Shown piece by piece: positions 33,249-49,101 of a DNA stretch of 64,000 nucleotides. Every line of letters begins with the position of its first letter. Positions within the stretch are counted from its first letter, which is position 1. Under the pieces are notes generated by a model that was not told the origin of the DNA, made no database searches, and saw only the letters and a list, made by a program, of their open reading frames with translations. This DNA is from an uncultured Candidatus Saccharibacteria bacterium (GTDB lineage Bacteria; Patescibacteriota; Minisyncoccia; Minisyncoccales; JANBVM01), in contig CAZBMQ010000001.1 of assembly GCA_964493485.1 (NCBI GenBank), forward strand, positions 43,616 through 107,615. The letters run 5' to 3'. The position numbers were made by a program, and so were the translations under genes.

Positions 33249-33290
33249 TTCGAATCAGTTAACTAATCATTCGAATCAGTTAACTAATCA
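33249..33290. repeat. Perfect tandem 2 x 21 nt TTCGAATCAGTTAACTAATCA; the second copy contains the copB stop codon
   Basis: Read directly. Each unit contains the palindrome AGTTAACT. Confidence 0.9.
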
Positions 33291-35868: not shown

Positions 35869-35889
35869 TGATATTTTAAATCTTGAAAT

Positions 35890-36051
35890 TTAGGATTTCC
35901 ATAATCCATGAACACTGCAACATTCTCTTGCTGTAATCCTCTTATCAGACTGGTGTAAATCAAACTCAACCTCAGGGTTATCTCCTGGTTTAAGAAATTT
36001 TCTATAAACCCTCTCCCCTACAACTATATTTGTATATTTGTCTCTGCCGGG
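35890..36051 (-). pseudogene. C-terminal remnant of a superoxide reductase (neelaredoxin-type)
   Basis: A 53-codon open frame without a start codon: PGRDKYTNIVVGERVYRKFLKPGDNPEVEFDLHQSDKRITARECCSVHGLWKS. The C-x-x-H-G-L-W end matches the SOR C-terminus (P. furiosus YCNIHGLWE, recollection). There is no room for the N-terminal His ligands before the rbr stop at 36072. Confidence 0.5.
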
Positions 36052-36071
36052 TCATATTTTATTTCTGTTAA

Positions 36072-36656: not shown

Positions 36657-36708
36657 AAATAGTATACTTTTTGTTAAATAAATAATATCGACCTTTTTAA
36701 AAATACAA

Positions 36709-37914: not shown

Positions 37915-37919
37915 TTTTT

Positions 37920-38201
37920 TTATTTTCTTATCTTATATTCTTTTCTTTTTTTGTATTCTCTTTGTTTTGCAATATTCCATTGGGAAACTGGCCTCAAATA
38001 ACCGCACACCCTTGAATATACTTCGCATTTTCTAAAGTTTGTTAATCTTGGGTCTTTTTCAAAGCATTCTTTACATTTTACAACAAATAAATCCTTTCTC
38101 TCGTCTCTGTATTTTAATAAAACCTCCTCCCCTTCTTCAATCTCACTATTGCAATCATGGCAATAGCTATTTACTCTTCTCACATTTTTTGCAAATACCA
38201 T
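37920..38201 (-). CDS. 93-aa stand-alone NrdD C-terminal-type domain (zinc ribbon plus glycyl-radical motif RVCGY)
   Basis: CHDC...CKEC...EVYSRVCGYLRPVSQWNIAKQREYKKRKEY matches the class III RNR C-terminus. Overlaps the Fur-family gene by 35 nt. Confidence 0.6.
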   Translation of the reverse strand: MVFAKNVRRVNSYCHDCNSEIEEGEEVLLKYRDERKDLFVVKCKECFEKDPRLTNFRKCEVYSRVCGYLRPVSQWNIAKQREYKKRKEYKIRK

Positions 38202-38547
38202 AAATTAAAACTTGATATTTTTTAACTCTGCCGACCTTTGTCTTTTTAATCTCAGCCATCTTAATCTCTTCAAACACATCAAAAATCCCTCCGCATCTTT
38301 CACAAAAAAAATGGGCATGGGGAGACAAACATCCATCATAATGTCTTATCTCGCAAGGAAGTTCTTGAATTTCTCCTTTTTCTTTAAGATTGTTCAGAAT
38401 TCTATAAACAGTCCCCTTGCTTATCCGAGGAAGTTTCTTCCTTACATTTAAATAAACCTCTTCGGCTGAAGGATGGGATTTTGTTTTTTTTAAATAATCC
38501 AATATAATCTTCTTCTGAGAAGTGATTCTTTCTTTTACACTCTTCAT
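38167..38547 (-). CDS. Fur-family metalloregulator (PerR-like by context)
   Basis: Winged-helix N-terminus (HPSAEEVYLNVRKKLPRISKGTVYRILNNL), HFFCERCG and CKKC zinc site. Neighbours are rbr and an SOR remnant. Confidence 0.85.
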   Translation of the reverse strand: MKSVKERITSQKKIILDYLKKTKSHPSAEEVYLNVRKKLPRISKGTVYRILNNLKEKGEIQELPCEIRHYDGCLSPHAHFFCERCGGIFDVFEEIKMAEIKKTKVGRVKKYQVLIYGICKKCEKSK

Positions 38548-38598
38548 ATTAGTACTAATTCCTATTTAGATTCTATTCCTAATAAAAATAGCTGTCAA
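38548..38598 (-). promoter_or_regulatory. Promoter TTGACA-N17-TAGAAT plus 12-bp palindrome ATTAGTACTAAT abutting the Fur-family ATG
   Basis: -35 is the complement of 38593-38598 and -10 is the complement of 38570-38575. The palindrome is at 38548-38559. Confidence 0.5.
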
Positions 38599-38639
38599 CA
38601 AACAGCTTGTAGAAAAACAAAAAAGTTTTCAAAAATATA

Positions 38640-39014
38640 TTACTCTTCAACAGGCTCTCCTAACTTCCTTTTAAGTCTTTTTATTTCCTCTTTCAGTTCT
38701 ATCATCTTTAACTCTCTGCCCGTTGTCAGCTCACGCCACTGCTCAAGCTCCTCAAGTCTTTTCTTTGCTTCTTCTTCCCTCTTCCTTCTCTCTTCTTCCA
38801 TTTGTTTCCTTGTTTTTTCCAATTCCCGTAAGTCATCCATCATCAAACTCAATCCAATAAATAATTCTGAAAACTCATCTTCTTGTTCTGGAATTTCTAT
38901 TTTGCCTGAAAAATCTCCTACTGCTGCTTTCTGAATTATTGGAATCAACTGGGAAAGTCTCTTTTTTACATATTCTTTGTATTTTTTTAGCTCCTCTGAT
39001 TCTGTTTGATTCAT
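38640..39014 (-). CDS. 124-aa HAMP-like plus coiled-coil protein with TTGRELKMIELKEEI motif
   Basis: GDFSGKIEIPEQEDEFSELFIGLSLMMDDL is HAMP-like. The coiled coil shares a motif with the 49170-50084 C-terminus. Confidence 0.5.
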   Translation of the reverse strand: MNQTESEELKKYKEYVKKRLSQLIPIIQKAAVGDFSGKIEIPEQEDEFSELFIGLSLMMDDLRELEKTRKQMEEERRKREEEAKKRLEELEQWRELTTGRELKMIELKEEIKRLKRKLGEPVEE

Positions 39015-39035
39015 ATGTTTAATAAATATTATTAA

Positions 39036-39443
39036 TTAACCCTGCTTTAACCACTTTACTGCTTCTTCTTTTGAGCTAAATAATTTTATGTCTGATTTAA
39101 CTCCGCTTGCTGTTATTATAAATGAAGCTATGGTTCTTGCTATTATCCCTCCAAATACTGCCACCTTTTTAGGTGTCAATTCTTGAAACAACTCTTTCAC
39201 CCTACCTGCTATATCTTTTCTTAATTTAGAAGATAAAGGAATTAATCCGCTAGTAATATCTACCAAAACCAACAAATCTCCTGAAAATCTCCTTACTATT
39301 TCTCTCCCTTCTTTTATTAAATTGTCAATACTTTCCATATCTATATTTTTTATTAGTTTCACATTAGCTATCCCGTCTTGGTCTATCCAGATCTTCATTT
39401 CTTCCTTTGAACTTTCCCCAATTGTATTATCTTGGTCTGCCAT
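39036..39443 (-). CDS. SpoIIAA/STAS-like small protein, paralog 1
   Basis: Paralog of 57393-57785. C-terminal motif RTIA-x-FIITA...LFSSKE-x-A-x-x-WL. Confidence 0.55.
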   Translation of the reverse strand: MADQDNTIGESSKEEMKIWIDQDGIANVKLIKNIDMESIDNLIKEGREIVRRFSGDLLVLVDITSGLIPLSSKLRKDIAGRVKELFQELTPKKVAVFGGIIARTIASFIITASGVKSDIKLFSSKEEAVKWLKQG

Positions 39444-39476
39444 AGTTTTATTATAACATTTTTAGAAATTTATACA

Positions 39477-40244
39477 TCATCTTTTTTTCAAGAATACAGA
39501 CAAAAGAAAAAAGAAAGAATTTACTAGAATAATTAATGGCCCTGCAGAATATCCGGTTGATCTACTTATAAATATTCCAAAGATACAACTTACTGCACCT
39601 AATATCATTGCTCCATAAGAATATTGAAATAGGTTTTTGCTTAAATTTCTAGAAGCACATGCAGGAATAGCCACTAAAGCTGCTGTCAAAAGACCCCCTA
39701 CTATCTTTACGCCTAATACCACAATTATGGAAATACAAGCTAAATAAATAAAATTATATTTTCTTACATCTATTCCCTCTACCTTAGCTAAGTCTTCTGA
39801 GATGCTTAAAAAAATTATCTTGTTGTAAATTCTCTGAAGGATTAAAAAAATTATCAAAGATAATCCAACAGAAATAAAAGCCTCTAGAACCCCTACATTA
39901 GCAATATCACCTACCAAAGCTGTTTCTAAATCTTCAGAAGGAAGAATTAAAAAAGCCACAGCCACTCCAGTTGCAAACACCACAGCTGTAAGAGATTCTA
40001 CTGGTAAACGAGTTCTCATCTCAAAAAACCATATCAAAACAGCACCTAAAACCACAAAAGGTAAAGCTCCCAAAGAAACATCAAATCCATATATCAAAGC
40101 TAAAGCAATTCCCGGCAGAGTCAAATGTCCTAATGGTCCTGCAATCAAACCCATTTTCTTTGAAACCATCAAAGAGCCTAAATATCCTGCTGTTCCGCCA
40201 ATAAATATTCCTGTTATCAAACTAAATAAAAATTGATTATCCAT
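39477..40244 (-). CDS. ABC-3 family metal (Zn/Mn/Fe) transporter permease
   Basis: ~8 TM, ZnuB/MntB/TroD-like composition and size. Overlaps the ATPase gene. Confidence 0.8.
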   Translation of the reverse strand: MDNQFLFSLITGIFIGGTAGYLGSLMVSKKMGLIAGPLGHLTLPGIALALIYGFDVSLGALPFVVLGAVLIWFFEMRTRLPVESLTAVVFATGVAVAFLILPSEDLETALVGDIANVGVLEAFISVGLSLIIFLILQRIYNKIIFLSISEDLAKVEGIDVRKYNFIYLACISIIVVLGVKIVGGLLTAALVAIPACASRNLSKNLFQYSYGAMILGAVSCIFGIFISRSTGYSAGPLIILVNSFFFLLSVFLKKR

Positions 40245-40935
40245 GAAGATGTTGATAGAATTTTATTTCTCCTCCATAAAGCTGAACTAAGGTCTCCGGA
40301 GAAATAATTTCTCTCGGAGGTCCAAAGCATAAAGCTTTTTTATTAAGACACAATACTTTATCAGCTATCTTATATACAATATTTAAATCATGAGAAACCA
40401 AAAGCATTGTCATTTTCCTTTCTTTCTGAATTCTTCCTAAAAGATGGTAAATATTTTCCTGTCCTCCAATATCGATACCAAAAGTGGGTTCATCGAAAAG
40501 CAACACCTCTGGATTTTCGCATAAACCCCAAGCAACAAGGATTCTTTGAAACTGACCTGTAGAAAGAGTTGTTATTTTCTTTTTCAAAATGTCAGAGTGA
40601 AACATACCTACCGCCTTCAATATATTTAAAACCTCTTCATAATCTTTCTTTTTTAAATTAAAAAATTCCTTTATGGTCAAAGGAAAATCTTTTGCTAAAG
40701 GAAGATTTGTAGGAATATAACTTATTTTTAAACCCTTCCTCCAACTTATCTCTCCTTCATAGGGCAAAAGTCCCAACAAAGTCCTAAATAGAACAGTTTT
40801 TCCAGCACCGTTAGGCCCTAAGACAGTTAATGTTTCTCCCTCTTTTACTTTAAAACTTAAATCTTCAATAATTTTTTCTCCATTTAGCTTTACATTTAAA
40901 TTCTTCACTTCCAAAATATTGTTTTGCGTTTCCAT
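40237..40935 (-). CDS. Metal ABC transporter ATPase (ZnuC/TroB-like)
   Basis: Walker A GPNGAGKT, signature LSTGQFQR, Walker B LLFDEP. No substrate-binding protein gene is adjacent. Confidence 0.88.
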   Translation of the reverse strand: METQNNILEVKNLNVKLNGEKIIEDLSFKVKEGETLTVLGPNGAGKTVLFRTLLGLLPYEGEISWRKGLKISYIPTNLPLAKDFPLTIKEFFNLKKKDYEEVLNILKAVGMFHSDILKKKITTLSTGQFQRILVAWGLCENPEVLLFDEPTFGIDIGGQENIYHLLGRIQKERKMTMLLVSHDLNIVYKIADKVLCLNKKALCFGPPREIISPETLVQLYGGEIKFYQHLHG

Positions 40936-40993
40936 AATATTCCTATTCTATCACAAAAAATAAAATTAAAAAAAATTGTCTAATTTGTACATT

Positions 40994-41272
40994 CTATTTT
41001 CTGTGAATACGGATCGCTTTTCCTTCTATAAGAGCTTCGGCTATTTTTCTGCGAGCTGAGGCTAAAATCCTTCCAAGAGTACTTTGGGAAATTTTCATTT
41101 TTTTTGCTGCTTCTATCTGATCCAAATCTTTCAAATCACAAAGCCTTACTGCTTCTAACTCATCAACCCTTAAATCAACCTCTTCTAAATCAGAAAGAGG
41201 CACTGCTCTTGGCTTGAAATATGTCACATTAGGGTCAAATAAAATCCGTCTTGGTTTTATTGGTCTCACCAT
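40994..41272 (-). CDS. DUF134 (UPF0251) predicted DNA-binding protein
   Basis: MVRPIKPRR...YFKPRAVPL...LEAVRLCDLKDLDQIEAAKKMKISQSTLGRIL is a sigma-70 region-4-like HTH. Confidence 0.8.
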   Translation of the reverse strand: MVRPIKPRRILFDPNVTYFKPRAVPLSDLEEVDLRVDELEAVRLCDLKDLDQIEAAKKMKISQSTLGRILASARRKIAEALIEGKAIRIHRK

Positions 41273-41325
41273 AACACAATAATTAGGTGATAAGCTCTAA
41301 AGCTTACTCCTTGATATAATATATT

Positions 41326-42213
41326 TTACAAAATAAAAGTTAGTTTTTTAAAAATTTTAACAATTTCCTTTTTAGCTCTTAAATTAGTTTCCAAAATAGG
41401 AGTCAAATTGGCTACTGCCTTAAATATTCTTTTGTCGTAAGAAATACTTCCTAAAAACCTCTTGCCTGCCCATTTTTTTATTTCTTTTGCTATTTCTATA
41501 TTAATATCCCATTTATTTACAATAATCCTGTATGGAACCCTAAAATGATTTATTACCTCCAATACCCTCTTTAAATCAGAAAAACCAGAAACAGTAGGTT
41601 CTGTCACCAATACAGCAAAATTAGAATCCTGCAATGCCGCAATAACTGGACAACCTGTGCCGGGAGAAGAATCTAAAATCTGAATTTCAGCTTTATATCT
41701 ATCAGCTTCTTTTTTTATTTCTGTTATCACCTTACCTGAACCAGTCTCTCCAGGAAAAAGAATACCTGTTATTAAGGGAAACCCATATTTCGTAGCAACA
41801 ATAATCATTTCTCCATTTTGAACAGGCTTTAGCTTTACTGCTTTCTGAGGACAAACAATCTCACAAACCCCACATCCCTCACATAGGAAAGGATTTAAAA
41901 CAGGCTTCCCTTTTACTAACTCTATCGCTTTAAAACGACAATTTTTTATACATAAACCACAATTATTACATTTTCTCAAATCAATTTTTGGCTTTACAGA
42001 AGCAGTAATAGGGAGTTTTTTTAACATTCTCTCTCTTTTCTTCTCTATTGGTATACCAAGCCAGATTGCGAGATTTGGAGCATCAACATCACAATCAACA
42101 GCTGTTATCTTTTTCCTCTTCGCAAAAAGTAATGCGAAACTCGAAGCTATCATTGACTTTCCTACCCCTCCTTTACCAGATAGGATAACAATTTTTTTAA
42201 TCCTGCTTGCCAT
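41326..42213 (-). CDS. MinD/ParA-type P-loop ATPase with inserted 2x[4Fe-4S] ferredoxin motifs (copy 2)
   Basis: SGKGGVGKS, CNNCGLCIKNC and CEGCGVCEIVCP motifs. I place the start at MASRIKK (42213), which removes the overlap with the upstream gene. Confidence 0.8.
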   Translation of the reverse strand: MASRIKKIVILSGKGGVGKSMIASSFALLFAKRKKITAVDCDVDAPNLAIWLGIPIEKKRERMLKKLPITASVKPKIDLRKCNNCGLCIKNCRFKAIELVKGKPVLNPFLCEGCGVCEIVCPQKAVKLKPVQNGEMIIVATKYGFPLITGILFPGETGSGKVITEIKKEADRYKAEIQILDSSPGTGCPVIAALQDSNFAVLVTEPTVSGFSDLKRVLEVINHFRVPYRIIVNKWDINIEIAKEIKKWAGKRFLGSISYDKRIFKAVANLTPILETNLRAKKEIVKIFKKLTFIL

Positions 42214-42232
42214 TTTATACCTTTTAGGTTTC

Positions 42233-42748
42233 TTATTCAGGAAGAATACAAAGGGTGTTATTGAATCTATTAATATAGTTAAACAATCCAATAATTGACA
42301 CTATTTCTATTATCTCTTCTTCTGAAAAATCTTTTTTCAATTCTTCTAAAAGTTCGGGAGTACACACATGTGCTTTTAGCGTCACTTCTTTTACCAAAGT
42401 CAACACTTCCTTTTCATCTTGATTTGAACCTTCTCCGCTTCTCACCTGTTCTATCATCTCGTCTGAAGCTCCCAAAGATTTTAACATCTTTGTGGTCACA
42501 TCTACACAAAAAGGACATCTTAAAGAATTAGAAACCACAAATGCTATTTTCCACTTTAATAAAGGTTCTATTTTGCCTTCACCCATTATTACTTTAAAAA
42601 GCTCTGTAAATTCTTTTACTATTTTGGGGCTATGAGCCATTACTTTCACCCACTCAGGCACTTTTCCTGTTTGTTTTTCAAATTTCTCATAAACCTCACG
42701 AGCTATCTCATTTACCTCGTTTTTTTCTAATGAAGGAATTATCGCCAT
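42233..42748 (-). CDS. AhpD/carboxymuconolactone-decarboxylase-like protein
   Basis: CMD-like helical protein with a CPFC (CxxC) motif. Confidence 0.65.
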   Translation of the reverse strand: MAIIPSLEKNEVNEIAREVYEKFEKQTGKVPEWVKVMAHSPKIVKEFTELFKVIMGEGKIEPLLKWKIAFVVSNSLRCPFCVDVTTKMLKSLGASDEMIEQVRSGEGSNQDEKEVLTLVKEVTLKAHVCTPELLEELKKDFSEEEIIEIVSIIGLFNYINRFNNTLCILPE

Positions 42749-42765
42749 ATATTTAGTTTCTGAAT

Positions 42766-43599
42766 TTAGAATTTTTCTATATTTAATAAGCGACCTTTTG
42801 AATAGGATTCTGCCAATTCTCTTGAATAAGGAATCTCTTCTTCTATTTTTGTTTTAAATTTTCTAAGCACACTTATAACTTCTCTCTTATCTCCCAAGTC
42901 TGCTTGATTTAAAATTATCTTAGAGGGAATCTTCAGTTTTTCACACAACCTTAAAATCAAGCCCAAATCATGAGCTCCCATTGGAGTCGGCTCAGTTATA
43001 ATCATCGCTAAATCACAATTCAACAAAGCTGAAATTACAGGACAATGTGTGCCTGGTGCTGTATCAAATAGAATAATGTCAGCTTTTTGTTTTTTAGCAA
43101 AATCTAAAGCAAACTCTTTGGTTCTTAACACAATAGGACCTGTTTCTTCAATGCCAGGATTTGATAAGCCTGTAATCAACCAAAAATTATTTCTTACCTT
43201 ATTAACAAAAATCTGGCCTACTTTTTCCTTTTTCCTTTTTATCGCATTGTTTGGACAAACCATCCAACAAGCTCCACATGAAGAGCATAAATCTTTAATA
43301 AAAACAGGAAACTTTCCAGGAGCCTGGAAAATAGCATTGTTCTTGCAATTCCTTACGCACAATCCGCATTTCTTACATTTTGTCTTCAATAATTTAGGGT
43401 ATTCATTGTAAATATATTTTCTCGGTTTCTTTAGCCTCTCTCCAAGCAACAAATAATCATTTGGACATTCAACATCGCAATCGCATAAAATTATCCTTTT
43501 CTTTCTCTTTACAAACTGCTCTGCTTTCAACACAGCAACTGTTGATTTTCCTACACCTCCCTTACCTCCTGTGATTGCTATCTTTTTTAAATCCTTCAT
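42766..43599 (-). CDS. MinD/ParA-type P-loop ATPase with inserted 2x[4Fe-4S] ferredoxin motifs (copy 1)
   Basis: GGKGGVGKST, CKKCGLCVRNC and CSSCGACWMVCP motifs. Confidence 0.8.
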   Translation of the reverse strand: MKDLKKIAITGGKGGVGKSTVAVLKAEQFVKRKKRIILCDCDVECPNDYLLLGERLKKPRKYIYNEYPKLLKTKCKKCGLCVRNCKNNAIFQAPGKFPVFIKDLCSSCGACWMVCPNNAIKRKKEKVGQIFVNKVRNNFWLITGLSNPGIEETGPIVLRTKEFALDFAKKQKADIILFDTAPGTHCPVISALLNCDLAMIITEPTPMGAHDLGLILRLCEKLKIPSKIILNQADLGDKREVISVLRKFKTKIEEEIPYSRELAESYSKGRLLNIEKF

Positions 43600-43600
43600 T

Positions 43601-44845
43601 TTATTCTTTTTCTTTTGTAGGCTTGTCTAATTTTATTAATTTATTCCCAAAAAACTGTTTGATTACTTCTCCTACCTTATCTTGTTCTGCCTTATATACT
43701 TCTATTAGATTATTTTTCAAACTCTGAAAGGCTATCGGGCCAATCTCTTTTGTAATTAATATATCAGGCTCTTCTTTTGATAAATGCTCTGCCACAGCCA
43801 AACCTGCTCTTATTTCTTTGTTTTTGAAAGGATTTTCTTTAAATTCAAAAGACTGGATATTGTTTTTCTTAATTTTAACAAGAATAAAAGAATCTGCTCT
43901 TGCAAAACTATCGGATATTAAAGAATCAAGTCCGCTTTTTTGTTTTATTGGAACTACAATCATCTGCTCGAAAGATTTAAAAGGCTCAATATGAATAATA
44001 AAAGACTCAATCTGAGGAATCGCCTCTTTCACCTTCCTTTCTATCTGATCTGTTATATCATGGGCTCTTGCTACTTCAATAAATTTTTTAATTTTAATAT
44101 TCACTTCTCCAAAAATAAAAGGGCCTGATTTTCTCAGTTTTAATCCCGAAAAAGCCTTAATCTCTGAAATAGATTTCAAGACATCTGCAATTCTCTTTTC
44201 TATTTCTTCGCTCGGACTAACATCCATCAAAGAATAAATTGAGTCTTTAAAAGATTCAAGCCCTATCCTGAAAATAAGCAATGAAAACAAAATACCTATA
44301 ATCCCTTCTAATTTGGGAATATTCAAATAAGAAGAAAGAATTCCAACCACCACTAGAAAAGAAGAAACAATATGAGACTTTGCTTCTGTGCCATGTGCTA
44401 TCAAGCTTTGAGAATTTATCTCTCTACCAACTCTTACTTCATACTTTCCTACCAAATAGATTAAAAACGCGTCTAATATTGAAATAGCTATCGCAATAAA
44501 TGGAAGCTTTAAACTATACAAAACAGAAATTCTCTCACAGCTCTCTCTGGCAATCTCATAACCGGCATATAAAATCAAAACAGAAACCATCAAAGAGACA
44601 AGATTTTCTGCTTTATAAAATCCATAAGGAAATTGTTCTGTTGGTTTTCTTTGAGATATTTTAAAACCAAGCCATACAAAAAAAATAGAAAAAGCATCAC
44701 CAATACTATGAATAGCATCAGATAGAAGTGCTACACTTCCAGAAATAATACCTATCAACATCTTTAAACCCGCCAACAAAAAAACAACCATATTTACTTT
44801 TTTTGCTGTGGCTTCCCCTGTTTTTAAAATTTCTTCCTTTTTCAT
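43601..44845 (-). CDS. Cation diffusion facilitator (CDF) transporter fused to a C-terminal NifX/NifB-type cofactor-binding domain
   Basis: CDF TM core (LSDAIHSIGDAF, FPYGFYKAEN) plus a cytoplasmic CTD. Then ~110 aa (IVVPIKQKSGLDSLISDSFARADSFILVKI...ILITKEIGPIAFQSLKNNLIEVY) resembling the next gene. Confidence 0.7.
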   Translation of the reverse strand: MKKEEILKTGEATAKKVNMVVFLLAGLKMLIGIISGSVALLSDAIHSIGDAFSIFFVWLGFKISQRKPTEQFPYGFYKAENLVSLMVSVLILYAGYEIARESCERISVLYSLKLPFIAIAISILDAFLIYLVGKYEVRVGREINSQSLIAHGTEAKSHIVSSFLVVVGILSSYLNIPKLEGIIGILFSLLIFRIGLESFKDSIYSLMDVSPSEEIEKRIADVLKSISEIKAFSGLKLRKSGPFIFGEVNIKIKKFIEVARAHDITDQIERKVKEAIPQIESFIIHIEPFKSFEQMIVVPIKQKSGLDSLISDSFARADSFILVKIKKNNIQSFEFKENPFKNKEIRAGLAVAEHLSKEEPDILITKEIGPIAFQSLKNNLIEVYKAEQDKVGEVIKQFFGNKLIKLDKPTKEKE

Positions 44846-44865
44846 ATATTTACTTCTTTTTTTAT

Positions 44866-45291
44866 TTATCTTCCTCCTCTATGTCTGTGCCTATGTCTTC
44901 GTCTTTTTCCAAACCCAGAGCCAAAACCTCTTTGAAAATGTCCAGGAACACTTGGAATCTTAAGCTGGGTTAATTGATTTTTCTTCCACATTAAAAACAC
45001 CTGTTTTACTGTAAGATTAAACGGGGCAAAGAAAATCTTTACCCCGGCTGTGCTTAAAACATCGAAAGCATTGGGACCAATATTCCCTGTAATCAATACT
45101 CCTGCCTTTTTCGAAGCAATCTCTTGAGCAGCGGCGATTCCTGCTCCTCTCATAGCCCTTATTCCTGCATTCGGACATATATCTATTAAATCTCCATTTT
45201 CATCTAAAAAAAGAAAATAAGGAGCTCTTCCAAATCGAGGGCTGATAGGAGAATCCAGTGTTTTGCCTAAAGAAACTACACAAATATTCAT
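44866..45291 (-). CDS. NifX/NifB-C/NafY-type (dinitrogenase FeMo-cofactor-binding fold) small protein with His/Arg-rich tail
   Basis: SPRFGRAPYFLFLD...GVLITGNIGPNAFDVLSTAGVKIF, with tail KRRRHRHRHRGGR. Confidence 0.78.
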   Translation of the reverse strand: MNICVVSLGKTLDSPISPRFGRAPYFLFLDENGDLIDICPNAGIRAMRGAGIAAAQEIASKKAGVLITGNIGPNAFDVLSTAGVKIFFAPFNLTVKQVFLMWKKNQLTQLKIPSVPGHFQRGFGSGFGKRRRHRHRHRGGR

Positions 45292-45298
45292 ATTGTTT

Positions 45299-45676
45299 TT
45301 ATTTCTTTTTTTTCTCTAACCCTTTGAGTCTTTCTTCTATTGCTTTCATTTCTTCTCTTAAAACCTCAAGTTCATCTTTTAATATTTCTTTTTCTTCCTT
45401 TAATAACTCTTTCTCTTCTTTCGGAGTCAATTCTTCAACAGGATAGTCAAAATAAGGAAACATCCAAGCTGGAGGATATCCCCATCTTCGCCCCCATCCA
45501 AGACCCCATCCTCTGCCCCAACCTCTTCGCCAACCGAATCCTCGACCCCATCCTCTGCCCCATCCTCTGCCTATTGGGTTTAAATATCCAGGATACGGAT
45601 ATCCAGCACAATATCCCAATCTTCTCCCAGTACCAGGACCTAATCCCAAGGGACCTGTTTTATCTCCTAATGGCAT
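45299..45676 (-). CDS. DUF5320-family protein (Gly/Arg/Trp-rich N-half, coiled-coil C-half)
   Basis: MPLGDKTGPLGLGPGTGRRLGYCAGY, then (RGWG)n, then a LKEEKEILKDELEVLREEMKAIEERLKGLE coiled coil. ATG at 45676; the track ORF starts at an upstream TTG. Confidence 0.7.
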   Translation of the reverse strand: MPLGDKTGPLGLGPGTGRRLGYCAGYPYPGYLNPIGRGWGRGWGRGFGWRRGWGRGWGLGWGRRWGYPPAWMFPYFDYPVEELTPKEEKELLKEEKEILKDELEVLREEMKAIEERLKGLEKKKK

Positions 45677-45749
45677 ATTTTTCAAAAAAATAAATTATTT
45701 TAAGAAAAATCGACCTTTCTTCCGCTACATTATGAGTATATACCCATAA

Positions 45750-46943
45750 TTATTCCTTGTCAAGAGCTTTTCTCTCTCGAAGCCTCATTCCAAAAAGAAA
45801 ACGCATAATTCCTATTCTTTTAATAAATACCTCATAGATAAGAAATATTAAAATTAGAGAAAATATATCAATAAAGAAAAATTTAGCTAAAGCAGAAATA
45901 TTCCATTTTATCACATAAAATCCAACCCCAACTATTACTGTTTGATGCAATATAAAAAAGGGCAATACTGTTCCATTGAAATACTGTAATACTTTATTAT
46001 TAAAGCTCATAAATCTTTTTCCAAGATATAATACAGCCAATGTCCAAAACCAAATATTTATTCCTCGTAAACTCTCGAATATGTATTTTTTAACTATAAA
46101 ATCAAAAGAATATCTCTGTTTTGTGGCCAAAAATCCTATTTCTTTCCATCCAATCTTAAAAAGAATTAAGCTAAATACAACCGCTAAAATCAAAGAGGTT
46201 TTTCCATATTTTTCAATTGTTTCTTTAAATCTCTCATCTGAAAAAAGAAAAAATCCATATATAAAAATAGCAATATATAAAAATGGATTTTGAAAAAATG
46301 ACCATCCTTTTAGGGCTCGGGCTATCACCTCAATCACTGCCAAAGGAACTGCCAACAAAAATATACCAGCTGATGAATTACAAAAATCTGTTATTTTGGA
46401 AAGAATTTCTCTTCTTTGTTTAAAATAAATAAAAAACGGAAGAGTGATAAAGGAAAAAATAAATAAAATAGCCAGAAACCATAAATGAGCCAATTCAAAA
46501 CTTCCAGAATAGCTCCCCCCTAAAGGATATTCTCGATTAATATTAAAAAAATAATAAGAATAAAATTCTAAATAAGACTCCTGATATTCTGGAATACTTT
46601 TTAAAACAAAATAAAGTTGCGGAGGAACAATTATCAATACCCCGAAGATGAATGGAACTATAAGACGTTTGAATCTTTCTATTATATATTCTTTCTCTGT
46701 ACGATATCTCAAGGAAAAACAAGCTGCAGCACCAGCTATAAAAAAAAGAAAAGGAAGCTGCCATTGGTCAAGAAAAAAAATAAGGGTGTCACAAAAAGAA
46801 CATAGATTTTTACTCTTGATATAAAATGGAGCCACAGAATCAAAAATCCTAGCAGTATGAAAAAAAAGAAATAAAAATACAGTTAAAACCCTCAACCAAT
46901 CTAAATAATAAACTCTGTCTGGTTTATTTTTAGTTTTCTCCAT
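45750..46943 (-). CDS. Acyltransferase-3 family integral membrane protein
   Basis: ~10 TM with N-terminal YLDWLRVLTVFLFLFFHTARIF, typical of the family. Confidence 0.65.
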   Translation of the reverse strand: MEKTKNKPDRVYYLDWLRVLTVFLFLFFHTARIFDSVAPFYIKSKNLCSFCDTLIFFLDQWQLPFLFFIAGAAACFSLRYRTEKEYIIERFKRLIVPFIFGVLIIVPPQLYFVLKSIPEYQESYLEFYSYYFFNINREYPLGGSYSGSFELAHLWFLAILFIFSFITLPFFIYFKQRREILSKITDFCNSSAGIFLLAVPLAVIEVIARALKGWSFFQNPFLYIAIFIYGFFLFSDERFKETIEKYGKTSLILAVVFSLILFKIGWKEIGFLATKQRYSFDFIVKKYIFESLRGINIWFWTLAVLYLGKRFMSFNNKVLQYFNGTVLPFFILHQTVIVGVGFYVIKWNISALAKFFFIDIFSLILIFLIYEVFIKRIGIMRFLFGMRLRERKALDKE

Positions 46944-46968
46944 AATCTTTTATTTTATCAAAAATAAA

Positions 46969-48093
46969 TTAAATCTTAATTTCTTCTCTCACCCCTTCTA
47001 ATGATAGTTGTGTGTTAATAAAATAAACACCATTTTTTTGCCATTCTTTTTTTATTCTCTCTGCGTCTTGTTTGTTAAATACTATTGCTATCCCACAATC
47101 CCCTCCTCCAGCACCTGAAAGTTTTCCTGCTCCCCTGTTTCTATTCGCAATTTCGCTTAACTTTCTTAAAGTAGGAGTCTCTATATTAACATTAGATTTT
47201 TCCCCAAGCTCTCTCAAATAATATTCGTTTTCTCTTATCAGCTTCAAGATTTTTTCTTTATTATTTTTTTTCCAGTGTTTTAATAAATCTCTTACTAAAT
47301 TATTTATCTTTTTAATTATTTGTTTGTACTCCTTCTGATTTTTTACCTTCCATTTATTTAATTTCTTTACCATTTCTGCTGTAGAAGAAGATTTTCCTGT
47401 CCAGCCAACAAGTAAATGAAAATCTCTTGGAGTTTTCAATCTCTCAATATAAAAACCAGGCCACTTCATTTCGATTATTTTTTTTAGTCTCACTCTTTTC
47501 TTAATTCTATTAATCAGCCATTTTGAACTAAATCTTTTATAAACAAGTACTCCTCCAAATGTTGAAGCTGCAACATCAAAACCAGAACCTATTTTCCCTT
47601 GGACAAAAAAATGTGATATAGCTGCTAATTTAAATATTTTTTCTGATATCTTTTTCTCAATTTTCTTTCCATAAAATCTAAAAAGACCCGCAATAACAGC
47701 CACAGTAACAGCGGCAGAAGAACCAAAACCAATCGATTCTGTTTTCCCTCTTTTTTTTATAATTGTCTCTCCCCCCCATGTTTCTATCTCAAACGGCTGC
47801 GTAATCTCTAAATAATTTAAAACTGTCTCAATAGCGCGCCTTACAAAAGATACATACTTTTTCTCTTTTTTGGTTAATCTTTCTTTAAACCTAAGCTCCC
47901 CCTCTTGAAAATAAGCCTTAAGGTTTTTAATGCCAAAATCTCTAAGGGTAATGTGAATATATTTGTCTTTTGATTTTTTTATTTTCACAAATACCCTTTT
48001 TTCAAGAGCTGCCACAATCAAAGGATTACCTGTCTCTAGCACAGCCCATTCTCCTGCAATACAAATCTTTCCTGGAGCAGATATTTTTATCAT
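46969..48093 (-). CDS. mvaK2: Phosphomevalonate kinase (GHMP family, ERG8/MvaK2 type)
   Basis: ISAPGKICIAGEWAVLE, GFGSSAAVTVA and SGAGGGDCGIA motifs. Adjacent to mvaD. Confidence 0.7.
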   Translation of the reverse strand: MIKISAPGKICIAGEWAVLETGNPLIVAALEKRVFVKIKKSKDKYIHITLRDFGIKNLKAYFQEGELRFKERLTKKEKKYVSFVRRAIETVLNYLEITQPFEIETWGGETIIKKRGKTESIGFGSSAAVTVAVIAGLFRFYGKKIEKKISEKIFKLAAISHFFVQGKIGSGFDVAASTFGGVLVYKRFSSKWLINRIKKRVRLKKIIEMKWPGFYIERLKTPRDFHLLVGWTGKSSSTAEMVKKLNKWKVKNQKEYKQIIKKINNLVRDLLKHWKKNNKEKILKLIRENEYYLRELGEKSNVNIETPTLRKLSEIANRNRGAGKLSGAGGGDCGIAIVFNKQDAERIKKEWQKNGVYFINTQLSLEGVREEIKI

Positions 48094-48099
48094 ATAAGA

Positions 48100-49101
48100 T
48101 TAAAACAAATGCTTATTTGTTATTCTTGCTCCTCTTCCCGGTCTTGTCACAATAACTTTCTCTACCCCTTTGATGTACCTGCATCTTTTGATAATTTTTT
48201 TTATGTCTTTTTCCAAACAAATAATTTTTACTTGAGGACCTGCATCAATAGTAAAATAGCATTCTATTCCCTGGTTTTTCCATTCAATAATTCTATTAAT
48301 CAAATCTATGGTGGTGCTGTTCCAATAAAATATAGAGGGTTTCGATGTCATTGTAAGAGCGTGCATCTTTAAGCAATTTTCTTGAGCAGTCTCACCTACA
48401 AGTGTAAAATTTCTATCTTTTATTCCTTTTTTTATTCTTTTAATATCCTGGTCTATGGTTTTTAACCAAGCTTTATACATTGGAGAAGTGCGCACTGTTC
48501 TTTCCATTCCAGTCCTTGAAGACACCTTCTTTTCCCTACTCGAAGTAATACATATTATCATTCTAAAATCCTGCCAATAATCTGCAGGTACAATCTGGTG
48601 TGCATAGGAATCTAAACCATCTCTTCTTTTACCTTTTTTCCATTCTACAAAACCGCCAAAAATAGACCTCGAGGCAGACCCAGAGCCCCTTCTTGCAAGA
48701 ATACTTAATTCTTTTTTGTTTAGATTTAAACAAAGCGCCTGATTTACAGCAAGAGCTAAGGCTGCAAATCCGGCAGCTGAAGAAGCTAAACCAGCGGCTG
48801 TAGGAAAATTATTATAACTCATAATCTTGGCTCTCAAACGAATACCTGCTTTCTTTCTAACAACATTTAAAAATCTCCCTACTCCATCATCATATTCTTT
48901 CGAACCTTTTTTAAATGTTTTTCCATTTAAAATAAACAAATCTTCTTTATATTCTTTACTAAATTCAATTGTAGTATGAGTCATCAATCCTTCTGTTGTC
49001 ATACTAATACTGCTGTTATAAGGCAGCTTTAATGTTTTGTTTCTCTTCCCCCAATATTTTACTAATGCGATATTGGCATTGGCAATTGCTGAAGCCTTCA
49101 T
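48100..49101 (-). CDS. mvaD: Diphosphomevalonate decarboxylase
   Basis: ANIALVKYWGKRN, GLASSAAGFAAL and RRGSGSASRSIFGG motifs. Confidence 0.85.
   Translation of the reverse strand: MKASAIANANIALVKYWGKRNKTLKLPYNSSISMTTEGLMTHTTIEFSKEYKEDLFILNGKTFKKGSKEYDDGVGRFLNVVRKKAGIRLRAKIMSYNNFPTAAGLASSAAGFAALALAVNQALCLNLNKKELSILARRGSGSASRSIFGGFVEWKKGKRRDGLDSYAHQIVPADYWQDFRMIICITSSREKKVSSRTGMERTVRTSPMYKAWLKTIDQDIKRIKKGIKDRNFTLVGETAQENCLKMHALTMTSKPSIFYWNSTTIDLINRIIEWKNQGIECYFTIDAGPQVKIICLEKDIKKIIKRCRYIKGVEKVIVTRPGRGARITNKHLF

What the first reader, a model, noticed from the sequence alone, without database searches (positions are those of the whole stretch)
40994..45676. DUF134 / 2x MinD-ferredoxin ATPase / AhpD-like / CDF::NifX / NifX-like / DUF5320 operon: candidate metal-cofactor trafficking system inside a 17-gene metal/redox array
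Seven tightly packed co-directional genes combine the following:
- a Gly/Arg/Trp-rich coiled-coil protein (DUF5320, with RGWGRGWGRGFGWRRGWGRGWGLGWGRRWG);
- a NifX/NifB-C-type cofactor-binding protein with a KRRRHRHRHR tail;
- a cation-diffusion-facilitator exporter;
- two P-loop MinD/ParA ATPases, each with two CxxCxxCxxxC ferredoxin motifs;
- a CxxC AhpD-like protein;
- a DUF134 HTH protein.

By my recollection, DUF134 + MinD-ferredoxin + NifX-like + DUF5320 is a recurrent neighbourhood in anaerobic bacteria and methanogens with no experimentally defined function.

Here it continues directly into a metal ABC importer lacking a binding protein (39477-40935). After that come the STAS/HAMP pair, the Fur-family regulator, the NrdD-like protein, MFS, rubrerythrin, the SOR remnant, HAD and CopB (down to 33284). 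All are on one strand with tiny or overlapping gaps.

The context argues for assembly, insertion or buffering of a metal or Fe-S-type cofactor, coupled to oxidative-stress defence.
Basis: partly seen in the sequence, partly recalled or inferred. Interest (0 to 1): 0.6.

Follow-up and report, generated by a model that had tools for sequence, protein, structure and literature searches.

The report
ORP/IssA-type iron-sulfide handling operon
This seven-gene operon, from a tiny candidate-phyla-radiation (CPR) bacterium, is a variant of a gene cluster found throughout anaerobic bacteria and archaea; two partly studied relatives (the Desulfovibrio "orange protein" complex and the Pyrococcus iron-sulfur storage protein IssA) suggest it stores and passes on iron-sulfide, and two large families of unknown function, DUF5320 and DUF134, now get testable roles in it.

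Summary
All seven minus-strand genes, their domains and the quoted motifs are present.

The neighbourhood is far beyond chance. I anchored on DUF5320 in 80 species from about 25 bacterial and archaeal phyla. A NifX-like gene lies within 5 kb in 65 of them, and 43 carry exactly two MinD-ferredoxin ATPase genes.

The NifX-like family also includes IssA, the thioferrate iron-sulfur store of Pyrococcus.

New inferences here:
- DUF5320 looks like a free-standing IssA-type tail (disordered, cationic, Gly/Arg/Trp-rich) plus a coiled coil. It is fused to NifX in many proteins.
- CDF::NifX is a common fusion.
- DUF134 is probably the operon's repressor. It is fused to NifX elsewhere. It is nearly mutually exclusive with Fur-type and OrpR-type regulators. 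A 20-22 bp palindrome over the -10 box recurs upstream of these clusters in CPR bacteria, Asgard and other archaea.

The "17-gene array" is not a unit: the flanks vary between relatives, and a separate promoter starts a PerR-like/rubrerythrin module. The function itself remains inferred. Verdict: a new variant of a known, unresolved system.

The parts
45735..45763 (-). Sigma-70-type promoter (TTGACA, 17 nt, TATACT) of the operon, 59 nt upstream of the DUF5320 start codon
   Evidence: It is one of only two 11/12 consensus matches in 33000-47200. The same -35/17/-10 arrangement is conserved upstream of DUF5320 in L004 and L014, two Nealsonbacteria genomes whose CDF proteins are only 57-69% identical to the window's.
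45729..45750 (.). 22-bp palindrome ATTATGGGTATATACTCATAAT overlapping the -10 box; candidate operator, probably for DUF134
   Evidence: It is unique in the window; 0.02 matches are expected by chance. The core TTATG-NN-TATATA-NN-CATAA recurs directly upstream of DUF5320, NifX or DUF134::NifX genes in CPR bacteria, Asgard archaea, Methanosarcinales, Woesearchaeota and Syntrophorhabdus loci. There are 16 hits with at most 2 mismatches against 0.9 expected. Presence is associated with DUF134 (7/23 versus 3/57 loci, Fisher p=0.005) and is 0/21 in Fur loci.
45299..45676 (-). DUF5320 protein (125 aa). It has an invariant N-terminal motif MPxGDxTGPxGxGPxTGRxxGYC with the single Cys, a Gly/Arg/Trp repeat, and a C-terminal coiled-coil helix. 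Proposed role: a trans-acting IssA-type polycationic tail.
   Evidence: Pfam PF17253. The AlphaFold2 (AF2) model is disordered over residues 1-76 and helical over 85-124. Its composition matches the IssA tail (against PMC5524996). It is fused to NifX in many proteins. The family has 7190 representative clusters.
44866..45291 (-). Stand-alone NifX/ORP-like (PF02579) protein with a 31-aa cationic tail (pI 12)
   Evidence: Pfam. Best solved relatives are D. gigas orange protein 2WFB (1.9e-15) and MTH1175 (7.6e-15). Cationic tails are common on cluster NifX proteins.
43601..44845 (-). [quoted passage not shown]
   Evidence: Pfam. The 120 best homologues listed (489 at E<=1e-5) share the same three domains. 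The AF2 model has pLDDT 84.6. Foldseek best hits are YiiP and ZnT. The closest solved sequences are FieF/YiiP, with an invariant H46/D50/E154 and near-invariant H158 transport site. The closest curated models are MamM, MamB, MntE and FieF.
42766..43599 (-). MinD/ParA-class P-loop ATPase with an inserted 2x[4Fe-4S] ferredoxin domain, type A (Orp3/Orp4-like)
   Evidence: Pfam. Conserved across 85 homologues: the deviant Walker A motif, DCDV, eight ferredoxin Cys, and an invariant switch-II Cys. It belongs to the type that comes first in gene order.
42233..42748 (-). AhpD/CMD-like CxxC protein (peroxidase-related); lineage-specific insert
   Evidence: Pfam PF02627. NCBIfam TIGR01926 gives a hit below its cut-off. 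It is present in L005 and L009 but in only 1/80 DUF5320 loci.
41326..42213 (-). MinD/ParA-class ATPase with 2x[4Fe-4S], type B, with an amphipathic-looking C-terminus (KEIVKIFKKLTFIL)
   Evidence: Pfam. The second gene of the pair is closer to this protein than to type A in 34/34 loci. A C-terminal amphipathic helix is reported for Orp3 and Orp4 (PMC6345978).
40994..41272 (-). DUF134 helix-turn-helix protein; proposed operon-specific transcription regulator
   Evidence: Pfam PF02001 with sigma-70 region-4-like HTH. DUF134::NifX fusions exist. It is nearly mutually exclusive with Fur-like and OrpR-like regulators in these clusters. It is associated with the palindrome.
39477..40935 (-). ABC-3 type metal importer (ZnuC-like ATPase 40237-40935 and ZnuB/SloB-like permease 39477-40244) with no binding protein; lineage-specific associate, probably in the same transcript
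   Evidence: Pfam and NCBIfam. The same pair sits between the two ATPase genes in L014, again without a binding protein. No ZnuA/TroA-type protein was found anywhere in the window.
38570..38607 (-). Hairpin followed by a T-run, overlapping a second strong promoter-like site (TTGACA, 17 nt, TAGAAT); likely boundary between the operon and the PerR-like/rubrerythrin module
   Evidence: The Fur-family gene that follows (38167-38547) is PerR-like.

Best explanation
The locus is the candidate-phyla-radiation (CPR, Nealsonbacteria-like) version of an ancient gene cluster found across anaerobes. Its studied relatives are the Desulfovibrio ORP complex and Pyrococcus IssA.

Proposed working model (inferred except where marked):
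- NifX-like domains bind an inorganic, anionic metal-sulfide species without covalent links. This property is shown for homologues: ORP, IssA and the NifX-like (Di-Nase) domain of MrpORP.
- Here that cargo is most likely an iron-sulfide or thioferrate-like species.
- DUF5320 supplies, as a separate polypeptide, the disordered cationic Gly/Arg/Trp tail that IssA carries in cis. Its coiled coil makes it multivalent, so it can neutralise and condense the polyanion.
- The two paralogous MinD-ferredoxin ATPases form an A/B heterodimer. Co-purification of Orp3, Orp4 and Orp8 is shown for homologues. The heterodimer would carry four [4Fe-4S] clusters, plus a possible inter-subunit site made of the conserved DCD and switch-II cysteines. 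It would use ATP and electrons to build up, mobilise or hand on Fe-S units.
- The CDF::NifX protein couples this pool to Fe2+ (or Mn2+/Zn2+) efflux across the membrane, as an overflow valve or a cargo-gated exporter.
- The binding-protein-less ABC-3 importer feeds metal in.
- DUF134 is a dimeric repressor that binds the palindrome over the -10 box and responds to the same cargo, directly or through a NifX partner.
- The AhpD-like CxxC protein is an accessory thiol or peroxide reductase.
For: Identity with the ORP/IssA kind:
- The best solved relatives of the NifX protein are the orange protein and MTH1175.
- The paired MinD-2xFer4 architecture matches the description of Orp3/Orp4.
- DUF5320 loci from other phyla carry Mrp::NifX (Orp9-like) genes and PAS/sigma-54 activators (OrpR-like).

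Functional unit:
- There is strong, distance-dependent co-occurrence in 80 species.
- The core is conserved in CPR relatives while the flanks vary.

NifX as the common cargo domain:
- It is fused to a CDF transporter (120 best homologues listed, all three-domain).
- It is fused to Mrp, to DUF134, and to DUF5320 with or without a ferredoxin domain.

DUF5320 as an IssA-like tail:
- It is predicted disordered with a C-terminal helix.
- Residues 1-84 contain 23 Gly, 11 cationic, 18 aromatic and 10 Pro residues, one Cys, and have pI 10.2. The IssA tail has 15 Gly, 7 cationic, 14 aromatic and 11 Pro residues, one Cys, and pI 10.7.

Iron rather than another metal:
- In 21/80 loci a Fur-family gene lies in the locus; 20 of the 21 lie within 2 kb upstream of DUF5320.
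- All 8 of those sampled score best as ferric-uptake Fur.
- The CDF is closest to the FieF, MamM, MamB and MntE types.
- No Mo or W transporter family surfaced in an unbiased neighbourhood census.

Heterodimer:
- The two ATPase types are ancient and conserved in gene order (34/34 loci), with invariant catalytic motifs and cysteines.

Regulation:
- Promoter and palindrome are conserved.
- The three regulator types are nearly mutually exclusive.
Against: - No experiment exists for any protein of this locus.
- The physiological cargo is unknown even in Desulfovibrio, where the purified orange protein carries a Mo-Cu sulfide cluster and the proposed role was cell division.
- A Pyrococcus study of wild-type versus IssA-deletion cells exists (PMC8219758, listed). 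I did not read it in detail.
The resemblance rests on composition and on NifX::DUF5320 fusions.
- The window lacks two ORP components: Mrp::NifX (Orp9) and the small Cys-rich protein (Orp5).
- The CDF transport site (H-D/E-H) is non-canonical, so its metal is uncertain.
- The link between the palindrome and DUF134 is correlative. Only 7 of 23 DUF134 loci show the motif at the stringency used, and 3 loci have it without a detected DUF134 (on short contigs).
Confidence: 0.55

Rival explanations
1. The system handles a hetero-metal thiometallate. It would sequester or detoxify thiomolybdate, thiotungstate or copper as [S2MoS2CuS2MoS2]-type clusters, as found on the purified Desulfovibrio gigas orange protein, and the CDF would export the partner cation.
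For: - The closest solved relative of the NifX protein is the orange protein, which carries a Mo-Cu sulfide cluster (PMC6345978).
- The cargo is likewise a linear anionic metal sulfide, so the cationic tail logic applies equally.
- A CopB-like P-type ATPase lies 6 kb downstream.
Against: - Cluster-associated regulators are ferric-uptake-Fur-like.
- No Mo, W or Cu transporter family recurs near DUF5320 in 80 loci.
- The P-type ATPase is not a conserved neighbour.
- From general knowledge, not tested here: the system is kept in very small CPR genomes, which are not known for molybdoenzymes.
- The NifX-like domain of MrpORP binds an Fe-S cluster.
Confidence: 0.12
2. The MinD-like ATPases are a spatial or cell-division system, as first proposed for the ORP complex. 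The metal clusters would serve only as redox sensors that tie division to anaerobiosis.
For: - Loss of OrpR, and therefore of the Orp proteins, causes morphological defects in D. vulgaris (PMC8359166).
- MrpORP localises to the cell pole, and Orp3 and Orp4 have a MinD-like amphipathic C-terminus.
- Window ATPase B ends in an amphipathic-looking helix.
Against: - No MinC, MinE or other division genes appear in the neighbourhood census.
- The constant partners are cargo-binding NifX domains, a metal exporter and iron regulators.
- The authors themselves call the role 'still unclear'.
- The phenotype may be an indirect effect of Fe-S deficiency.
Confidence: 0.08
3. It is an oxidative-stress or redox electron-transfer module. 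The ferredoxin-domain ATPases would feed electrons to the AhpD-like protein, rubrerythrin and related detoxifiers, as the reader's '17-gene array' suggests.
For: - An AhpD-like CxxC protein lies between the ATPase genes.
- Rubrerythrin, a SOR remnant and a PerR-like regulator lie downstream.
- A rubrerythrin gene lies about 6 kb upstream of the cluster in one relative, L006.
- orp expression in Desulfovibrio is controlled by redox potential.
Against: - The AhpD-like gene occurs in 1/80 loci and rubrerythrin in 1/80.
- The PerR/rubrerythrin unit has its own promoter.
- The flanks are not conserved.
- This reading does not explain NifX, DUF5320 or the CDF fusion.
Confidence: 0.08
4. There is no joint function. 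The genes are adjacent only because the genome is compact and almost entirely coded on one strand.
For: Nearly all genes of the window are on the minus strand with short gaps, so packing alone proves nothing.
Against: - The same families cluster around DUF5320 in 80 species of about 25 phyla, with steep distance decay and a flat control family.
- There are multiple domain fusions among the families.
- Gene order of the paralogous ATPases is conserved.
Confidence: 0.02

Closest known systems
ORP (orange protein) complex operons orp3-4-5 / orp7-8-9 of Desulfovibrio vulgaris Hildenborough
   Same: - It has two paralogous MinD-type ATPases, each with two [4Fe-4S] motifs (Orp3/Orp4), plus a single-domain NifX-like protein (Orp8).
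- It is specific to anaerobes.
- Related DUF5320 loci also carry Mrp::NifX (Orp9-like) and PAS/sigma-54 OrpR-like regulators.
   Different: - The window has no Mrp::NifX, no small Cys-rich Orp5-like protein and no sigma-54 activator.
- Instead it has a sigma-70-type promoter with a palindromic operator, DUF134, a CDF::NifX exporter, DUF5320 as first gene, an AhpD-like insert and an ABC-3 importer.
- I could not check whether Orp7 (DVU2107) is a DUF5320 protein.
IssA, the thioferrate iron-sulfur storage protein of Pyrococcus furiosus (PMC5524996)
   Same: It combines a PF02579/IPR003731 domain with a disordered cationic tail rich in Gly, Arg and Trp, containing one Cys, that is proposed to wrap the anionic (FeS2-)n polymer. 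DUF5320 has nearly the same composition. The window's NifX protein has a short tail of pI 12.
   Different: - In the window the long tail is a separate gene (DUF5320), with an extra invariant N-terminal motif and a coiled coil.
- Thioferrate binding and particle formation are untested.
- Membership of the IssA clade was not determined.
NifX / NafY / NifB C-terminal domain with NifH in nitrogenase cofactor maturation
   Same: NifX-fold carriers of a complex metal-sulfide cluster work with a deviant-Walker-A dimeric ATPase that carries Fe-S clusters.
   Different: - There are no nitrogenase genes here.
- The ATPase belongs to the MinD/ParA class with an inserted di-cluster ferredoxin domain. It is not NifH: the Fer4_NifH Pfam hit has E=7.7e-4 and is below threshold.
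FieF/YiiP and MamM/MamB cation diffusion facilitators
   Same: It shares the six-helix transmembrane domain plus cytoplasmic dimerisation domain. Sequence and fold are closest to YiiP/FieF, and the closest curated models are MamM, MamB, MntE and FieF.
   Different: - It has an extra C-terminal NifX-like domain, and no solved structure has one.
- The transport-site quartet is H46, D50, E154, H158, rather than DD-HD or HD-HD.
Mrp/NBP35/ApbC Fe-S carrier ATPases (for example the Nbp35-Cfd1 heterodimer, and MrpORP)
   Same: They are deviant-Walker-A P-loop ATPases that act as (hetero)dimers in Fe-S cluster transfer. The N-terminal P-loop region gives weak hits to the MrpORP model.
   Different: The CxxC bridging motif is absent. 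Instead there are eight ferredoxin cysteines plus conserved DCD and GTxCPV cysteines. No curated family covers this architecture.

Membership tests
ORP complex gene cluster (Desulfovibrio orp operons) | Two paralogous MinD-type ATPases, each with two [4Fe-4S] ferredoxin motifs (Orp3/Orp4) | tested here: met
   Both window proteins have the deviant Walker A motif and two CxxCxxCxxxC motifs. The match to Orp3/Orp4 is at the level of architecture as described in PMC6345978. No direct sequence comparison with DVU2103 or DVU2104 was possible.
ORP complex gene cluster (Desulfovibrio orp operons) | Single-domain orange-protein/NifX-like protein (Orp8) | tested here: met
   The best solved relative is D. 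gigas ORP, 2WFB, E=1.9e-15 over residues 3-106.
ORP complex gene cluster (Desulfovibrio orp operons) | Mrp/NBP35::NifX two-domain protein (Orp9/MrpORP) | tested here: not met
   None is present in the window operon or in the CPR relatives. Mrp/MinD-type genes without a ferredoxin domain lie within 5 kb in 37/80 DUF5320 loci of other phyla, and some of these are Mrp::NifX fusions.
ORP complex gene cluster (Desulfovibrio orp operons) | Small Cys-rich [2Fe-2S] protein (Orp5 / Dde_3197) | tested here: not met
   Intergenic gaps of 1-58 nt leave no room for it. A candidate small CxCPxCG protein exists in L014 and as a C-terminal module on some NifX proteins.
ORP complex gene cluster (Desulfovibrio orp operons) | Sigma-54 promoter with the PAS-domain activator OrpR | tested here: not met
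   The window has a sigma-70-like promoter and no activator gene. OrpR-like genes occur in 12/80 loci, nearly exclusive of DUF134 and Fur.
ORP complex gene cluster (Desulfovibrio orp operons) | Physical complex of the proteins | not testable with these tools
   It needs pull-down or co-expression experiments. No multimer prediction tool was available.
IssA-type thioferrate storage proteins | IPR003731/PF02579 globular domain | tested here: met
   PF02579 hits in the stand-alone protein (E=8.7e-16) and in the CDF fusion (E=2.8e-14). MTH1175, used as the IssA structural model in PMC5524996, matches at E=7.6e-15.
IssA-type thioferrate storage proteins | Long (about 70 aa) cationic, Gly- and aromatic-rich C-terminal tail on the same polypeptide | tested here: not met
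   The window NifX tail is only 31 aa (pI 12). A tail of IssA-like composition is encoded separately as DUF5320, and it is fused to NifX in other organisms.
IssA-type thioferrate storage proteins | Membership of the IssA clade in the IPR003731 tree; thioferrate binding and nanoparticle formation | not tested
   The IssA sequence (Q8TZG9) was not available to the tools. Binding requires XAS, EPR and TEM.
Cation diffusion facilitator (CDF) transporters | Six transmembrane helices plus a cytoplasmic alpha-beta dimerisation domain | tested here: met
   Pfam Cation_efflux plus ZT_dimer. TIGR01297 scores 202 bits, above its cut-off of 82. The AF2 model has pLDDT 84.6. Foldseek gives YiiP at E=7e-14.
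Cation diffusion facilitator (CDF) transporters | Canonical transport-site quartet (DD-HD in FieF/YiiP, HD-HD in Zn-CDFs) | tested here: inconclusive
   Aligned positions are H46, D50 / E154, H158 (three invariant, H158 at 90% or more). This is a variant quartet whose selectivity I cannot assign.
Mrp/NBP35/ApbC Fe-S carriers | Conserved CxxC motif that bridges a [4Fe-4S] cluster between monomers | tested here: not met
   There is no CxxC outside the ferredoxin insert. The conserved cysteines are DCD (91%) and GTxCPV (100%). All NCBIfam hits are far below their cut-offs.
MinD cell-division ATPases | Deviant Walker A, C-terminal membrane-targeting helix, and partners MinC/MinE | tested here: inconclusive
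   The deviant Walker A motif is present. Protein B has an amphipathic-looking C-terminus. No MinC or MinE was found in the window or in the neighbourhood census. MinD model scores are far below cut-off.
DUF134 / UPF0251 | Match to the family profile, with a C-terminal helix-turn-helix | tested here: met
   PF02001, E=2.6e-25, with HTH_3 and sigma-70 region-4 sub-hits. No solved structure matches by sequence.

The most novel reading that the evidence does not exclude
The DUF5320 / NifX / paired MinD-ferredoxin cluster would be an ancient Fe-S storage and delivery route that needs no cysteine desulfurase and works directly from Fe2+ and sulfide. DUF5320 would act as a trans-acting IssA-type tail that condenses thioferrate-like polymers into granules. 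DUF134 would be a dedicated cargo-sensing repressor whose operator has been conserved across Bacteria and Archaea. This route would be a major way of handling iron-sulfide in CPR, DPANN, Asgard and many other anaerobes. It would also unify the unresolved ORP complex with IssA.
Probability: 0.2. Interest if true: 0.85.

Novelty: new variant of a known kind. Interest (0 to 1): 0.6.

Why it matters
How strict anaerobes store iron and build Fe-S clusters is an open question. The role of the ORP complex has been called unclear since 2011, and IssA homologues outside Pyrococcus are uncharacterised.

This locus and its 80 relatives contribute several things:
- They connect the ORP and IssA lines of work.
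- They assign testable roles to two large families of unknown function. DUF5320 has about 7,200 representative clusters.
- They add a transporter fusion, CDF::NifX, to the system.
- They predict a regulator and operator pair that can be tested by a gel shift.
- A bacterium whose close relatives have genomes of only about 0.65 Mb keeps six or seven genes for this system, which argues that it is important rather than peripheral.

Tried and rejected
- The founding ORP paper (Fievet 2011, PMC3133258) is not held. I therefore could not check the family of Orp7/DVU2107 or the paper's own synteny figure.
- Full-text searches for DUF134, UPF0251, DUF5320 and the related COG numbers found no functional study. 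The only mentions are a G-quadruplex motif scan and incidental listings.
- Rfam found only one tRNA in the window.
- The general repeat search in 33-47 kb gave only the coding G/R/W repeat and the paralogous ATPase segments. The operator was found by comparing upstream regions instead.
- Counts of promoter-like and terminator-like sites are no higher than in shuffled sequence. Only the two 11/12 promoter matches were used.
- DUF134 has no solved relative by sequence.
- The DUF5320 model is mostly low-confidence, so I ran no fold search on it.
- The idea that the 17 co-directional genes form one array was rejected.
- I considered whether the window's Fur-family gene is the cluster regulator seen in other phyla, and rejected it: that gene is PerR-like, while the regulators in other phyla are Fur-like.
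- Whether the genome lacks SUF, ISC or NIF could not be tested. None is in the 64-kb window, but the rest of the genome is not available. A literature search on minimal Fe-S systems in CPR gave nothing usable.

Full report
**What is there.** On the minus strand between 45676 and 40994 lie seven genes separated by 1-58 nt. Pfam assigns them as follows:
- DUF5320 (45299-45676; E=2.6e-25).
- A NifX-like Nitro_FeMo-Co protein (44866-45291).
- A three-domain Cation_efflux + ZT_dimer + Nitro_FeMo-Co fusion (43601-44845).
- A CbiA/ParA P-loop ATPase with two 4Fe-4S motifs (42766-43599).
- A CMD/AhpD-like CxxC protein (42233-42748).
- A second P-loop/2xFer4 ATPase (41326-42213).
- DUF134 (40994-41272).

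The only correction is the start of the second ATPase: it is the ATG that gives 295 aa, as in the public gene call.

**Source organism.** The window is part of a 133-kb metagenome contig. The window also carries a bacterial ribosomal-protein/EF-Tu/EF-G block. The nearest named relatives of its proteins are Candidatus Nealsonbacteria, Portnoybacteria and Parcubacteria. The organism is therefore a candidate-phyla-radiation (CPR) bacterium. Almost all genes of the window are on one strand, so co-directionality carries no weight as evidence.

**Is the neighbourhood more than chance?** I aligned diverse DUF5320 proteins and used the alignment to fetch DUF5320 loci from one genome per species. At least 445 species encode a relative. 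The 80 best loci come from about 25 phyla. These include Bacillota, Desulfobacterota, Planctomycetota, Spirochaetota, Chloroflexota, Omnitrophota and CPR, and among archaea Asgard, Bathyarchaeia, Methanosarcinales and Woesearchaeota. I built profiles from the window proteins and iterated them on the loci. Within 5 kb of DUF5320 I found:

| Family | Loci (of 80) |
|---|---|
| NifX-like | 65 |
| MinD-ferredoxin ATPase | 50 |
| Mrp/MinD without ferredoxin | 37 |
| Fur family | 21 |
| DUF134 | 17 (23 within 10 kb) |

- Forty-three loci have exactly two MinD-ferredoxin genes (counted within 7 kb).
- Among the 45 loci with at least 5 kb of downstream sequence, 32 have both NifX and MinD-ferredoxin genes.
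- NifX density is 4.5 per 10 kb in the first 2 kb downstream and 0.26-0.29 per 10 kb at 7-10 kb.
- An ABC-ATPase control family stays flat.

**What it is.** It has two.
  - These three proteins co-purify.
  - They receive Fe-S clusters from the Mrp::NifX protein MrpORP (Orp9).
  - They are transcribed only at low redox potential, under the sigma-54 activator OrpR.
  - Their role is still described as unclear (PMC6345978 and PMC8359166).
  - The best solved relative of the window's NifX protein is the orange protein itself (2WFB, E=1.9e-15).
  - DUF5320 loci of other phyla contain Mrp::NifX genes.
  - An unbiased clustering of all neighbouring ORFs also found PAS/sigma-54 activators of OrpR architecture in 12 loci.
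- *IssA.* The NifX-like family includes IssA of Pyrococcus furiosus. [quoted passage not shown] Two IssA homologues four genes apart are induced in pyrite-grown Methanococcus voltae (PMC8516115).

**DUF5320.**
- The family has an invariant N-terminus (MPxGDxTGPxGxGPxTGRxxGYC, containing the single cysteine), a Gly/Arg/aromatic repeat and a C-terminal helix.
- AlphaFold2 (AF2) predicts residues 1-76 as disordered and 85-124 as a confident helix.
- Residues 1-84 contain 23 Gly, 11 cationic, 18 aromatic and 10 Pro residues and one Cys, with pI 10.2.
- The 70-residue IssA tail is described as having 15 Gly, 7 cationic, 14 aromatic and 11 Pro residues and the protein's only Cys, with pI 10.7. It is proposed to wrap the anionic (FeS2-)n chain, and Trp, Gly and Arg recur in a repeating pattern in its homologues.
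- In four of the 80 loci the repeat-plus-helix part of DUF5320 is fused to a partner: after a NifX domain in three, and to a di-cluster ferredoxin in the fourth. One of the NifX fusions also carries a ferredoxin domain.
- A database search with one such fusion returned 120 best hits that are all NifX fusions of 200-330 aa. About 85 of them carry both PF02579 and PF17253 in the precomputed Pfam column; this count was made by eye.
- About half of the stand-alone NifX proteins in these clusters have C-terminal tails of 12 aa or more, and many of those tails are strongly cationic. The window's NifX tail has pI 12.
- I therefore read DUF5320 as the IssA-type tail made as a separate, multivalent polypeptide. 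This is an inference: I could not test direct homology to the IssA tail.
- The family is large, with 7,190 representative clusters at E<=1e-3. I found no functional literature on it.

**The NifX domain as the hub.** The same domain is attached to four different partners:
- a CDF transporter (the 120 best homologues listed all have this architecture; it also occurs in Desulfobacterota, Zixibacteria, KSB1 and Leptospirales loci);
- an Mrp ATPase;
- the DUF134 helix-turn-helix;
- DUF5320.

The simplest reading is that a transporter, an ATPase, a regulator and a polycation all recognise one cargo.

**The ATPases.** Across 85 sequences the following are conserved:
- the deviant Walker A motif;
- a DCDV motif (Cys in 91%);
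- all eight ferredoxin cysteines;
- a D..PG..CPV switch-II cysteine (100%);
- a TEPT motif.

The two paralogues are ancient types with conserved gene order. The second gene is closer to window protein B in 34/34 loci. Identity within a locus (0.27-0.38) is no higher than identity between orthologues from different phyla. Together with the published co-purification of Orp3 and Orp4, this points to an obligate A/B heterodimer. The two extra cysteines per chain could form an inter-subunit site, but that is inferred. No solved structure or curated family covers this architecture.

**The transporter.**
- The AF2 model is confident (pLDDT 84.6), and its membrane part matches YiiP and ZnT structures.
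- By sequence it is closest to FieF/YiiP. Among curated models it is closest to MamM, MamB, MntE and FieF, all below their equivalog cut-offs.
- The residues aligned with the YiiP transport site are H46, D50, E154 and H158 (three invariant in the family, H158 in 90% or more). This is a non-canonical quartet.

**Which metal?** Three observations favour iron over the Mo-Cu cluster seen on the purified orange protein.
- Of the 21 Fur-family genes in these loci, 20 lie within 2 kb upstream of DUF5320. All eight that I sampled score best against a ferric-uptake Fur model (101-142 bits, against 79-97 for PerR and about 40 for Zur).
- The neighbourhood census found no Mo, W or Cu transporter family.
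- The CDF has affinities with Fe/Mn-type transporters.

**Regulation.**
- One of only two 11/12 promoter matches in the region lies 59 nt upstream of DUF5320 (45763-45735).
- A 22-bp palindrome, ATTATGGGTATATACTCATAAT, covers its -10 box.
- Promoter and palindrome are conserved in two Nealsonbacteria genomes whose proteins are only about 57-69% identical to the window's.
- The core TTATG-NN-TATATA-NN-CATAA is unique in the window. It reappears immediately upstream of DUF5320, NifX or DUF134::NifX genes in Saccharibacteria, three Asgard loci, another archaeon, Methanosarcinales, Woesearchaeota and Syntrophorhabdus.
- In loci L007-L086 there are 16 hits with at most two mismatches, against 0.9 expected. 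The motif is associated with DUF134 (7/23 versus 3/57 loci, p=0.005) and absent from all 21 Fur loci.
- DUF134, Fur-like and OrpR-like regulators are nearly mutually exclusive (overlaps of 2, 0 and 1 loci).
- I therefore propose that DUF134 is the cluster's own repressor and that the palindrome is its operator. This is correlative and needs a binding assay.

**The wider 'array'.**
- The ABC-3 ATPase/permease pair is plausibly part of the same transcript. In a complete Nealsonbacteria genome it lies between the two ATPase genes, again without a binding protein. No ZnuA-type protein is encoded in the window.
- Downstream of 38640 the picture changes. A hairpin and the second 11/12 promoter precede the Fur-family gene.
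- That gene is PerR-like. It heads a unit with an NrdD C-terminal fragment, an MFS transporter and rubrerythrin, followed by an SOR remnant.
- None of these genes, nor the HAD and P-type ATPase genes, is a conserved neighbour in relatives.
- The AhpD-like gene is an insert of this lineage. Other CPR relatives carry UDG, isocitrate dehydrogenase, glutamate dehydrogenase or a thioredoxin fusion at that position.

**Verdict.** The locus is a new variant of a known but functionally unresolved system. The variant features are as follows:
- DUF5320 as first gene, read here as a tail acting in trans;
- CDF::NifX in place of Mrp::NifX;
- DUF134 with an operator shared across the two domains of life;
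- an embedded ABC-3 importer;
- occurrence in a CPR bacterium.

The mechanism I commit to is iron-sulfide buffering and ATP-driven hand-on, with gated efflux. It rests on homologues and comparative genomics only.

Noticed in passing
window 37920-38201 (-): A 93-aa ORF matches only the last ~55 profile positions of anaerobic ribonucleotide reductase NrdD. It includes a Cys-rich ribbon and an RVCGY glycyl-radical-type motif. It overlaps the PerR-like gene by 35 nt. No full-length NrdD is in the window. It could be a stand-alone 'spare-part' glycyl-radical protein or one piece of a split NrdD.
   Followed up: partly
window ~35900-36060 (-), between rubrerythrin and the HAD gene: A reading frame without a start codon encodes ...ARECCSVHGLWKS*. 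From memory, this resembles the C-terminal iron-ligand region of superoxide reductase.
   Followed up: partly
window 52090-52683, 57807-58409, 58439-59041, 60290-60889 (-): Four paralogous proteins of about 200 aa have a C-terminal V4R domain (Pfam hits just below threshold). A fifth 200-aa ORF at 56537-57139 has no hit. This is an unusual expansion for such a small genome.
   Followed up: no
window 45690-45705 (-); L004 and L014 upstream of DUF5320: A short element, AAAGGTCGA, lies in the predicted 5' untranslated region about 40 nt before the DUF5320 start. It is conserved in three Nealsonbacteria-like genomes and is separate from the palindrome. It could be a second operator half-site or an RNA element.
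   Followed up: no
L004 12462-13055, L005 14040-14636, L014 13792-14388: In three CPR relatives a uracil-DNA glycosylase gene (PF03167 in L004 and L005; in L014 judged from its position and N-terminal CxxC motif only) sits immediately upstream of the second MinD-ferredoxin gene, or in L014 upstream of the ABC pair that precedes it. From memory, family-4 UDGs carry a [4Fe-4S] cluster, so this could be a client protein. The window lacks it.
   Followed up: no
L014 10385-10678; C-termini of NifX proteins in L030, L060, L075: A Gly/Arg-rich segment is followed by a CxCPxCG...PH...PC...CxxCG cysteine module. It occurs either as a 97-aa protein between DUF5320 and NifX or fused after NifX. It may be the counterpart of the small [2Fe-2S] protein of the ORP operon (Orp5/Dde_3197).
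   Followed up: partly
L007-L086, within 7 kb of DUF5320: Further recurrent neighbours of unknown relevance: metallo-beta-lactamase fold (20 loci), SAM methyltransferase (19), ARMT1/DUF89 damage-control phosphatase (19), radical SAM (18), DnaJ-domain protein (6), DUF364/DUF4213 'heavy-metal chelation' (5) and CGGC domain (5).
   Followed up: partly
window 19890-24107 and 24500-27553 (-): Two very large proteins (1405 and 1017 aa) carry MopE-type metal-binding motifs, DUF4215, DUF11 and related repeats. They are probably surface proteins of this episymbiont-type bacterium.
   Followed up: no
window 46969-49101 (-): A GHMP kinase and a mevalonate-diphosphate-decarboxylase-like gene lie directly upstream of the operon, suggesting a mevalonate pathway in a CPR bacterium.
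   Followed up: no
window 13313-15544 (-): A 743-aa ORF has no Pfam match at E<=0.001.
   Followed up: no
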